Below are positions 25,013-26,574 of a stretch of DNA of 64,000 nucleotides, piece by piece. How positions within the stretch are numbered: position 1 is the stretch's first letter; the number at the start of each line of letters is the position of its first letter. Source of the stretch: Eledone cirrhosa (Eukaryota). The stretch lies in assembly GCA_964016885.1 (NCBI GenBank), contig OZ024743.1, positions 73,780,001 through 73,844,000 on the forward strand, read 5' to 3'. The notes under the pieces are model-generated. The model saw only the letters and a program-made list of their open reading frames with translations. It did not search any database and had not been told where the DNA came from. The position numbers and the translations under genes are program-made.

Positions 25013-25322
25013 AATACATACTTTTGATATATATATATATATATATATGTATATATATATATATATATATATATATATATATATATGTATGTATATATAT
25101 ATATATATATATATATATATATATATATATATATATATATATATATATATATATATATATATATAATAATAATAATAAGGGTTGACGGACCCAGCATATT
25201 TATCAATGCCAGTACCGGTTGTATCTCAGCGCACTCAATGGGCAATGTAAGATACATTACCAGAGTATACACATAGTTATTTGCCTCAACACAACACACG
25301 TAAAACGGGTGCCTATAAGGTT

Positions 25323-25431
25323 CCCAGACTCGAGTTTCTGCCGCACTAATGCACAGTAAGGTGCACTGCACCATCTGTCTGCATATATTATGCAACAATG
25401 CACAATCGGCTTATGCGGCTTCATCAGCGGG
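25323..25431 (-). ncRNA. Type I hammerhead, copy 1 (long loop II)
   Basis: CCCG-CTGATGA-A-GCCGCA...TGCGGC-A-GAAA-CTCGAG-TC-TGGG; palindromic stem III ACTCGAGT; GUC cleavage at 25327. Confidence 0.82.
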
Positions 25432-26163
25432 TATCGCCTAATCAATAACCAATCGATCGACAGAATCCAAACACCAGCCATTGCCGGTCATGTCTGTTTG
25501 TGATAACCGATACGGTAAAGCGATTAGCAACTGGCACCCGATAGGACTCTATCTCTCAACTAGCCACTGATTTACAAATTTTACGTGAGGACGGGAAGCA
25601 AAAATGAATCAATCATTTAGTTCCTGTCAGAAGATCTCAGTCAACGTGTCTCACGCAAATTATCAAGGAGTGAAAAGATGGCTATTAGAAATAGCAGTTC
25701 ACATTGATATAAAATAGAATGGTAGCATTTGGTTCATGTCTCCAAGCCCCATGGCTAGAGGAAAGCGATGGTAACAATGGTAGTGCCAAGAAGCTTTAAC
25801 GGACTTTAAACGCGATCATCCATTATATAACAATATAGTAGCGAGCTGAAATGTGTCAGCCACGTGCGAAGATAATCAGTCTAATTCACAACTTAAAAGA
25901 GTGAGAGACAAAATTAATAGCAGGAAAAAGAGTGCATATCAAAACAAAAACACAATAAAAAGTGAAAAATTGTTTAACTTACTCTCAATATTCCGCTAGT
26001 TGGGAGATAATAATAATAAGGGTTGACTGACCTAGCATATTTATCAATGCCAGTACCGGTTGTATCTCAGCGCACTCAATGGGAAATGTAAGATACATTA
26101 CCAGAATATACACATAGTTATTTGCCTCAACACAACACACGTAAAACGGGTGCCTATAAGGTT

Positions 26164-26273
26164 CACGGACTCGAGTTTCTGCCGCACTAATGCAGCAGTA
26201 AGGTGCACTGCACCATCTGACTGCATATATTATGAAACAATGCCCAATCGGCTTATGCGGCTTCATCAGCGGG
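26164..26273 (-). ncRNA. Type I hammerhead, copy 2
   Basis: Same as copy 1 except the stem I 3' arm is CGTG (one mismatch); GUC cleavage at 26168. Confidence 0.78.
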
Positions 26274-26574
26274 TATCGCCTAATCAATAACCAATCGATC
26301 GACAGAATCCAAATATATATATATATATATATATATATATATATATATATATATATATATATGTGTAAATATCTTTAAGTCGTTTGGAAGCCTCGACAAT
26401 GCAAATGGGTAAATCTCCGGGTAACAAGATCCGGTGGTGGAGAGAGAGATGTAAGTGGGTGTACGTTGAGATGCGTGGTGTGTATGAGATGTGTAGAAGA
26501 ATGAAGGAAAGAGTATAAAGGATAAAATTAAAATAACAACACGAGAGAGAGTTACCTTGGGAGAGATTTAATAG

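What the first reader, a model, noticed from the sequence alone, without database searches (positions are those of the whole stretch)
25166..26313. Retrozyme-like cassette: two hammerhead-bearing direct repeats that would excise an 841-nt non-coding RNA
Seen: two ~305-bp direct repeats around a 535-bp spacer with no long ORF, embedded in (TA)n. On the minus strand each repeat folds as a type I hammerhead with a canonical CUGAUGA/GAAA/GUC core, a 6-bp stem II carrying a ~70-nt structured loop, and a palindromic stem III (ACUCGAGU). The cleavage sites (26168 and 25327) are 841 nt apart. Known: palindromic stem III lets PLE hammerheads cleave as dimers, and LTR-like repeats with hammerheads flanking non-coding DNA are the architecture of retrozymes that yield circular RNAs. 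Inference: this is a non-autonomous, ribozyme-processed retroelement (possibly a circRNA producer) mobilised by the neighbouring PLEs. Such a family may be undescribed in this lineage.
Basis: partly seen in the sequence, partly recalled or inferred. Interest (0 to 1): 0.85.

Follow-up and report, generated by a model that had tools for sequence, protein, structure and literature searches.

The report
Hammerhead-bearing non-coding Penelope-type retroelement family
This is 1.36 copies of an 841-base non-coding mobile element, present many hundreds of times in the TA repeats of an animal genome, whose hammerhead-ribozyme fold has been conserved through several subfamilies and which likely spreads through a self-cut circular RNA copied by a Penelope-like retrotransposon; it is a new example of a known kind of element (an animal retrozyme).

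Summary
Observation confirmed: two 306-307 bp repeats (96.7% alike), each with a type I hammerhead motif, cut sites 841 nt apart. It is no chance deletion: the 841-nt unit is a dispersed family (895 exact hits of a 3' 19-mer), with an older sister family about 62% alike in the spacer. The repeats are not true LTRs. Copies share a fixed 3' end in (TA)n and end anywhere at 5'; 10 of 89 run on into a second unit, the pseudo-LTR pattern of Penelope-like elements. The hammerhead was under selection: 40 of 44 core and stem positions agree between families, and stem II shows two compensatory changes. It is atypical: an unpaired base on each side of stem II and a 66-67-nt loop II, and Rfam misses it. 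Copy anatomy fits reverse transcription round a circular RNA, but cleavage, circles and expression are untested (no RNA run). No autonomous partner was found; the neighbouring PLEs share no sequence with it. This copy has a substitution in stem I of both ribozymes and is probably decayed. Verdict: a new variant of animal non-LTR retrozymes / non-autonomous PLEs.

The parts
25166..26006 (-). One complete 841-nt unit of the non-coding element (family A): spacer 26006-25472, then hammerhead and 3' tail ending in (TTA)n
   Evidence: differs from the family's commonest letter at 23 of 828 positions
26007..26313 (-). 5'-truncated upstream partial unit (pseudo-LTR, unit positions 536-841), joined head to tail through the stereotyped (TTA)4 junction
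26164..26273 (-). Upstream type I hammerhead motif: core from 26269, unpaired A at 26262 and 26180, 7-bp stem II with 67-nt loop, GAAA from 26179, palindromic stem III, predicted cut after 26168; stem I has one mismatch in this copy
25323..25431 (-). Downstream type I hammerhead motif: core from 25427, GAAA from 25338, predicted cut after 25327; stem I closed by a G-U pair in this copy
25327..26167 (-). Predicted 841-nt monomer between the two cut sites (inferred circular RNA); 40% G+C; folds as a circle at -231 kcal/mol, z = -3.5 against 40 dinucleotide shuffles
   Evidence: prediction only
25305..25326 (-). Hairpin just after the cut site that is predicted to sequester the 3' strand of stem I once about 25 nt past the site are made; an equivalent hairpin is predicted in family B copies
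   Evidence: subfamily stretches
25441..25462 (-). 22-nt block upstream of stem I, identical between the commonest letters of families A and B; forms a hairpin or pairs with loop II (undecided, no covariation)
25892..25982 (-). Possible retained spliceosomal intron (GTAAGT donor, U-rich tract, CTCAC, AAG acceptor), motifs kept in families A and B; never seen precisely removed; inferred only
25027..25165 (.). (TA)n target microsatellite at the fixed 3' end
26313..26362 (.). (TA)n tract at the truncated 5' end, separating the element from a palindromic GIY-YIG PLE fragment (26365-29100)

Best explanation
It is a dispersed non-coding retroelement family with Penelope-type insertion anatomy and a conserved hammerhead fold, which likely spreads when a longer-than-unit transcript self-cleaves at two hammerheads, is likely ligated into an 841-nt circular RNA, and is likely reverse-transcribed round the circle by a Penelope-like enzyme at a nicked TA repeat. 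SHOWN: copy number, fixed 3' end in (TA)n, variable 5' truncation, head-to-tail partial tandems through one stereotyped junction, a succession of subfamilies, selection on the hammerhead fold, no conserved ORF. INFERRED: (1) a rare copy with two intact hammerheads (about 2-3% of copies) is transcribed; (2) the two palindromic stems III pair and both sites cleave, in a short co-transcriptional window before the downstream hairpin captures stem I; (3) a host ligase such as RtcB closes the monomer (shown for mussel and axolotl retrozymes in vitro, PMC7229834); (4) a PLE reverse transcriptase/GIY-YIG endonuclease primes at the (UUA)n stretch about 150 nt 3' of the cut site and copies until it falls off, so most inserts are shorter than one unit and a few longer, which regenerates two-hammerhead copies such as this one. 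The window copy itself is probably a decayed insert.
For: Family: 1216 spacer candidates; 381 exact hits of a 19-mer in the hammerhead's 3' half, 243 of a two-sided core pattern and 895 of a 19-mer near the 3' end, all with 0 control hits; roughly 1600 family A copies after allowing for 3% decay (estimate). Polarity: 25 of 30 hits chosen at the hammerhead end at unit position 824-825 followed by (TTA)n(TA)n; in 89 consecutive chromosome-1 copies chosen at the 3' end, 5' ends spread from 1 to 779. No barrier at the cut site: 68 of 89 run past it, 1 of 89 starts within 5 nt of it. No barrier at the unit boundary: 10 of 13 copies that reach it continue into the previous unit. The junction is templated: 69 exact pattern hits genome-wide, 27 of them letter-identical, and only one locus with two junctions, so no satellite arrays. 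One template per insert: in 21 partial tandems the upstream repeat is closer to its own downstream unit than most other copies are (mean rank 0.14; 17 of 21 under 0.25), and private variants are shared within inserts. Selection: families A and B agree at 371 of 598 spacer columns but 40 of 44 core and stem positions (Fisher p = 6e-5), the four changes being one compensatory G-C to A-U pair, the unpaired base before G12, and N17 (C to A, still NUH); a second compensation inside family A, 9 of 9 copies with A590 carry U665. Stem III pairs as an 8-bp dimer at -12.1 kcal/mol but is unfavourable alone (+2.2). The same cycle is proposed for PLEs and retrozymes in PMC4209133 and PMC7229834.
Against: No expression, cleavage or circle data exist here. 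The hammerhead is not the minimum-energy fold of any of 6 natural copies tried (4-10 kcal/mol above it; stem I probability at most 0.24). The unpaired base before G12 departs from the published PLE consensus (PMC4209133 supplement), and mismatches at the base of stem II lower activity in general (PMC3088659, passages). Eight of nine Xenopus retrozyme dimers did not cleave in vitro (bioRxiv 2026.07.22.740005). Some tandems disagree between their two repeats at subfamily-like sites (for example L185 at 748 and 770; 10 discordant against 5 concordant cells, several of them CpG or private changes), which one circle cannot give without later conversion or a template switch. No autonomous element sharing its sequence was found. 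The covariation counts are two events, not many.
Confidence: 0.62

Rival explanations
1. Same family and same PLE-driven insertion, but the template is a linear RNA: either an uncut read-through of a longer-than-unit locus, or a unit-length transcript with the reverse transcriptase jumping from its 5' end to the 3' end of another. The hammerhead is selected for something other than making circles, such as trimming a host read-through transcript or protein binding.
For: 5' truncation, a fixed 3' end and passage through the cut site are all expected from an uncut linear RNA. Discordant repeat pairs fit template switching. One copy is joined with no gap to a fragment of another PLE's hammerhead region (L131, 1 of 89). 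The hammerhead fold is predicted to be weak. Craig et al. (PMC8557442, passages) note that hammerhead function in EN+ PLEs is unclear and that some clades do without it.
Against: Jumps should give ragged junctions and a pile-up of 5' ends at the unit start; the junction is stereotyped and 10 of 13 copies pass it. Copying uncut linear loci can only shorten the upstream repeat, yet older and younger subfamilies each have partial tandems with matched repeats, and no tandem array was found to serve as master. The catalytic core and a legal NUH triplet are kept in all five subfamily clusters.
Confidence: 0.25
2. An internally deleted derivative of an autonomous PLE that still exists in this genome (leader and intron plus pseudo-LTR, ORF lost), mobilised by that parent through shared ends; possibly one of the neighbouring PLEs. 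This is compatible with either template.
For: Intron-like motifs at the unit start and a hammerhead near the 3' end match PLE layout (PMC8557442, PMC4209133). In Xenopus 24 of 57 retrozyme families match known elements, 21 of the 22 being PLEs. Both neighbouring PLE families also end at TTAT/TAT motifs in (TA)n.
Against: No similarity at relaxed BLAST settings between the A or B unit and 46 loci of the two neighbouring families, apart from one adjacent family A insert. None of 30 loci chosen by the shared leader continues into an ORF, and none of the sampled copies has coding sequence upstream of the hammerhead region. The neighbours' own hammerhead-like motifs differ in core and stems. Only two of probably many PLE families were examined.
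Confidence: 0.1
3. A dead fossil hammerhead carried passively, or a plant-type LTR retrozyme/TRIM-like cassette with true terminal repeats.
For: Both window hammerheads have stem I substitutions; Rfam finds nothing; this copy does look like LTR-spacer-LTR.
Against: Excess conservation and compensatory changes between and within families; repeat length varies from copy to copy and most copies have one or no hammerhead; the motif is type I, not type III.
Confidence: 0.03

Closest known systems
Metazoan non-LTR retrozymes (Cervera & de la Pena 2020, PMC7229834; Li, Clavereau & Pollet 2026, bioRxiv 10.64898/2026.07.22.740005)
   Same: Non-coding unit under 50% G+C with one type I hammerhead per unit, weak palindromic stem III, head-to-tail joins, coexistence with PLEs, many dispersed monomers.
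   Different: 841 nt against about 170-400 nt for the tested coral, mussel and axolotl RNAs (but inside the 51-972 bp range of the 2026 preprint); no tandem arrays, only partial tandems under two units; strict (TA)n targeting with a fixed 3' end; PLE-type rather than canonical hammerhead, with a predicted blocking hairpin; no RNA evidence yet.
Penelope-like elements and their pseudo-LTR hammerheads (Cervera & de la Pena 2014, PMC4209133; Craig et al. 2021, PMC8557442), including non-autonomous Chlamys such as MRC1
   Same: 5' truncation, partial tandems forming pseudo-LTRs, occasional short 3' run-on and nearby inverted copies, microsatellite targets, hammerhead near the 3' end with an extra base after A9, G10.1-C11.1, long stem II, short stem I, palindromic stem III.
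   Different: No ORF; no similarity found to an autonomous family; one more unpaired base between C11.1 and G12; a 66-67-nt loop II with two hairpins.
Plant LTR retrozymes (Cervera et al. 2016, PMC4918200; seen as search listing and as described in the two papers above)
   Same: Two hammerhead-bearing direct repeats around non-coding DNA in this one copy; monomer of similar size (600-1000 nt).
   Different: Those have true LTRs, type III hammerheads, PBS/PPT and 4-bp target duplications and use Gypsy machinery; here the repeats are copy-specific and the hammerhead is type I.

Membership tests
PLE-type type I hammerhead | Core CUGANGA, GAAA and NUH triplet | tested here: met
   kept in all five subfamily clusters; N17 is C in 87, A in 36, T in 3 and a gap in 2 of 128 rows
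PLE-type type I hammerhead | Extra base between 9 and 10.1, G10.1-C11.1 pair, palindromic stem III, short stem I | tested here: met
   against the features in PMC4209133
PLE-type type I hammerhead | C11.1 directly followed by G12; short loop II | tested here: not met
   one unpaired base (A in 83, C in 36 of 128 rows opposite the extra A) and a 66-67-nt loop; published consensus
PLE-type type I hammerhead | Match to an Rfam hammerhead model | tested here: not met
   no hammerhead family listed
PLE-type type I hammerhead | Site-specific self-cleavage, as monomer or dimer | not testable with these tools
   needs in vitro transcription
Metazoan non-LTR retrozyme | Repeated non-coding unit, one type I hammerhead per unit, G+C under 50% | tested here: met
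Metazoan non-LTR retrozyme | Tandem organisation with at least two consecutive hammerhead-bearing units | tested here: inconclusive
   met by this copy and 2-3 of 89 sampled copies as partial tandems; no arrays of two full units in the sample or among 69 junction hits
Metazoan non-LTR retrozyme | Expressed as linear and circular monomer RNA | not testable with these tools
   no RNA run listed
Non-autonomous PLE | Fixed 3' end, 5' truncation, partial tandems (pseudo-LTR), microsatellite target | tested here: met
Non-autonomous PLE | Sequence similarity to the end of an autonomous PLE family | tested here: inconclusive
   none with the two neighbouring families (46 loci) or among 30 leader-selected loci; other PLE families of the genome not examined
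Plant LTR retrozyme | True LTRs of fixed length with type III hammerheads | tested here: not met
Plant LTR retrozyme | PBS, PPT and 4-bp target-site duplication | not tested
   PBS/PPT not searched; (TA)n flanks hide any duplication

The most novel reading that the evidence does not exclude
An active hammerhead variant that tolerates an unpaired base on both sides of stem II and carries a large structured loop II (possibly pairing with a conserved 22-nt block upstream of stem I), switched off after transcription by a downstream hairpin, driving a long-lived viroid-like 841-nt circular RNA that has no surviving parent PLE and borrows unrelated PLE enzymes. Its roughly 1600 dated inserts would be an unusually clean genomic record of reverse transcription round an RNA circle.
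Probability: 0.3. Interest if true: 0.62.

Novelty: new variant of a known kind. Interest (0 to 1): 0.42.

Why it matters
How Penelope-like elements and animal retrozymes make their partial tandems, and what their hammerheads do, is still argued from models (PMC4209133, PMC8557442). This family lets the circle model be tested from the genome (no stop at the cut site or unit boundary, one stereotyped junction, matched repeats within an insert) and at the bench with an RNA under 1.2 kb. It also shows that descriptor and Rfam searches miss hammerheads with an extra base before G12 and a long loop II, so such elements are under-counted. It is not a new class of element.

Tried and rejected
No RNA holder listed for the stretch; the three listed runs are one sample of unrecorded kind, kept as contigs, and laying them showed only the family's alternative letters and says nothing on expression. 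Rfam at gathering score and at E up to 10: no hammerhead. A coding role for the 105-125-codon open frame across the hammerhead: open in the two largest subfamily clusters but with compensating frameshifts that change the peptide, and broken by stops in the other three of five clusters; rejected. Precise loss of the intron-like segment: none among the five deletions of 12 nt or more seen in 57 loci. Searches for an autonomous partner: short-loop core pattern (10 hits, one a deleted family B copy, one 750 nt beyond an unrelated PLE fragment), pattern excluding the usual stem II (16 hits, 15 family members and one unrelated), leader pattern (30 of 136 hits read), two neighbouring families: none found. 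Metagenome scan: 20 hits, none with the rest of the motif. Core conservation among family A copies alone was not used, since half the loci were chosen by an exact core match. Divergence of the neighbouring families comes from best hits and is biased low, so it was not used for dating. RNAalifold on 20 copies did not return the hammerhead fold. One alignment had wrong coordinates for two rows and was redone. Protein searches with the neighbouring PLE ORFs named no close organism, so the host lineage is not established; an octopus-like repeat landscape is a recalled impression only, and two paper searches on it listed no description of this element. Earlier findings by sequence and by place: nothing.

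Full report
OBSERVATION. On the minus strand, 26313-26007 and 25471-25166 are 96.7% identical over 307 columns and enclose a 535-bp spacer; nothing else in the window matches them. Both flanks are (TA)n. Each repeat holds CUGAUGA, an unpaired A, a 7-bp stem II with a 66-67-nt loop, another unpaired A, GAAA, the palindrome ACUCGAGU and a GUC triplet, with cut sites at 26168 and 25327, 841 nt apart. A relaxed scan of the 64-kb window found this motif nowhere else. Rfam does not recognise it.

A DISPERSED FAMILY. The window lies in a 3.0-Gb assembly. The spacer has 1216 candidates, and all 40 scored cover it at 92-100%. Exact patterns give 381 hits in the hammerhead's 3' half, 243 for a two-sided core pattern and 895 near the 3' end, with no control hits; allowing for 3% decay that is about 1600 copies (estimate). 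A short-loop pattern led to an older sister family B (2215 candidates; 2904), with the same unit length, about 10% decayed against 2.5% for family A, and intermediate subfamilies between them. Twenty metagenome hits were chance.

THE REPEATS ARE PSEUDO-LTRS. Of 30 hits chosen at the hammerhead, 25 end at unit position 824-825 before (TTA)n(TA)n, 4 end earlier and 1 runs on. I then read 89 chromosome-1 loci from the first 100 listed hits of the 3' 19-mer (hits in the same insert merged, the last few not fetched). Their 5' ends are spread from 1 to 779; 68 of 89 pass the cut site and 1 starts within 5 nt of it; 13 reach the unit start and 10 of those continue into a partial upstream unit (the script flagged 11; L218 is a 3' run-on). 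Two copies carry two hammerheads, three if an interrupted one (L139, seen as L043) is counted. So the window copy is a 1.36-mer whose 5' end happens to lie at position 536. Four of the 89 also start at 534-537, just 3' of a G+C-rich hairpin, a possible pause site (chosen with the window's own start in mind, a small number). The head-to-tail junction has 69 exact pattern hits genome-wide, 27 letter-identical by my count of the list, and only one locus has two: there are no satellite arrays that this pattern can see. In 21 partial tandems the two repeats of one insert are closer to each other than to most other copies (mean rank 0.14, 17 under 0.25, 1 over 0.5), and 11 non-majority letters are shared within inserts over 2677 compared sites. 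Against this, 10 cells at polymorphic sites are discordant and 5 concordant; several discordant ones are CpG or private changes, but L185 differs at two subfamily-like sites. This anatomy is the one described for PLEs in PMC8557442 (passages).

THE HAMMERHEAD IS SELECTED. The commonest letters of families A (21 rows) and B (30 rows) agree at 371 of 598 spacer columns, 108 of 148 tail columns, 51 of 67 loop II columns and 40 of 44 core and stem positions (Fisher p = 6e-5 against the spacer, binomial p = 0.003 against the tail's rate). The four changes are a compensatory G-C to A-U pair in stem II, the unpaired base before G12 (A or C) and N17 (C or A). On 20 copies 94% of cells pair, against 27-51% for slid partners (the structure was drawn from these sequences, and kin are not independent). 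Within family A a second pair changed through a mismatch: 9 of 9 copies with A590 have U665, 12 more have the intermediate (78 rows). The motif fits the PLE consensus of PMC4209133 (main text parts 1-2 of 4 and supplement file 2, part 1 and passages) except for the base before G12 and the long loop. One paper search on that position listed nothing relevant; two key papers were not held, so I cannot say the variant is unpublished. Folding predicts a weak monomer: the hammerhead lies 4-10 kcal/mol above the best fold in six natural copies, and stem I is lost once a hairpin about 25 nt downstream forms. Stem III is favourable only as a dimer. The 841-nt monomer folds better than shuffles as a circle (z = -3.5); the spacer alone only modestly (z = -2.1).

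NO PROTEIN. An open frame of over 100 codons crosses the hammerhead in the two main subfamilies, but they read it in different frames over part of its length and three smaller clusters have stops. I reject it.

PARTNER NOT FOUND. The window holds PLE-type ORFs at 3439-5934, 7751-9933 and 27009-28457 (PLE assignment from RT and GIY-YIG motifs and my own knowledge of the families). The families of the last two are large (64043 and 13026 candidates), also end at TTAT/TAT motifs in (TA)n, and have hammerhead-like motifs of their own that differ from this one. Neither shares sequence with the A or B unit (46 loci). One of 89 family A copies abuts such a PLE's hammerhead region with no gap, and two more lie across a TA tract from one: suggestive at most. 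Either family could supply the enzyme in trans; this is inferred from anatomy alone.

MECHANISM. Most likely a rare two-hammerhead copy is transcribed, cleaves at both sites with the palindromic stems III paired, is ligated into an 841-nt circle, and is reverse-transcribed from a nicked TA repeat starting at the (UUA)n stretch about 150 nt past the cut site. Falling off early gives the short copies; going more than once round gives partial tandems and new two-hammerhead copies. Every step at the RNA level is inferred. The main rival is a linear template with or without jumps (0.25). No RNA run was available, which is no evidence either way.

COMPARISON AND VERDICT. It works like, and in most tested features is, an animal non-LTR retrozyme (PMC7229834, parts 2-4 of 6 read, supplement not readable; PMC7761336, passages), and the idea that these are non-autonomous PLE derivatives is the title claim of bioRxiv 10.64898/2026.07.22.740005 (parts 1-3 of 5 read; its supplements are closed). 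It differs in being dispersed rather than arrayed, large, strictly TA-targeted, without a detected parent, and in its atypical hammerhead. Searches listed no description of this family, but repeat libraries were not available and the host lineage is unknown. Verdict: new variant of a known kind; interest 0.42.

Noticed in passing
window 6540-6631, minus strand (3' UTR of the PLE with ORFs at 7751-9933): A second type I hammerhead motif with the U3-A8 core variant, a bulged stem II with a loop of about 35 nt, a 6-bp stem III and a 4-bp stem I; unrelated in sequence to the finding. The family has 64043 candidates and intact 784-aa frames in head-to-tail arrays of 3531 bp.
   Followed up: partly
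window 28857-28889 (+) and 26608-26576 (-): The next-door GIY-YIG PLE family carries a conserved hammerhead-shaped motif (3-bp stem I, 4-bp stem II with GUGA loop, GAAA, palindromic stem III) whose first core strand reads CAGUUGA instead of CUGANGA; nearly identical in 23 occurrences seen. A possible unusual core variant; untested.
   Followed up: partly
window 26365-29100: Palindromic PLE fragment: two GIY-YIG and 3' UTR arms of about 1070 bp in inverted orientation; family members elsewhere have open frames up to 923 aa.
   Followed up: partly
L131 (= L038), G000:C1 near 89.72 Mb: A family A copy whose 5' end is joined with no gap to an inverted-repeat fragment of the other PLE's hammerhead region; could be a template switch.
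   Followed up: partly
window 14242-18432: Broken Helitron-like Rep/PIF1 helicase frames.
   Followed up: no
window 33715-34350; 30993-31487; 60359-63051: Mariner-like transposase fragment, a restriction-like endonuclease fragment of a non-LTR element (label from my own knowledge), and a broken reverse transcriptase element.
   Followed up: no
window 36409-36464: Weak tRNA match (31 bits), with an inverted partner near 40350-40519; probably a tRNA-derived SINE.
   Followed up: no
L067, G000:C17 near 2.0013 Mb: A short hammerhead-like core with unpaired A on both sides of a 2-bp stem II, 750 nt beyond an old PLE fragment; stem I is poor, so probably chance.
   Followed up: partly
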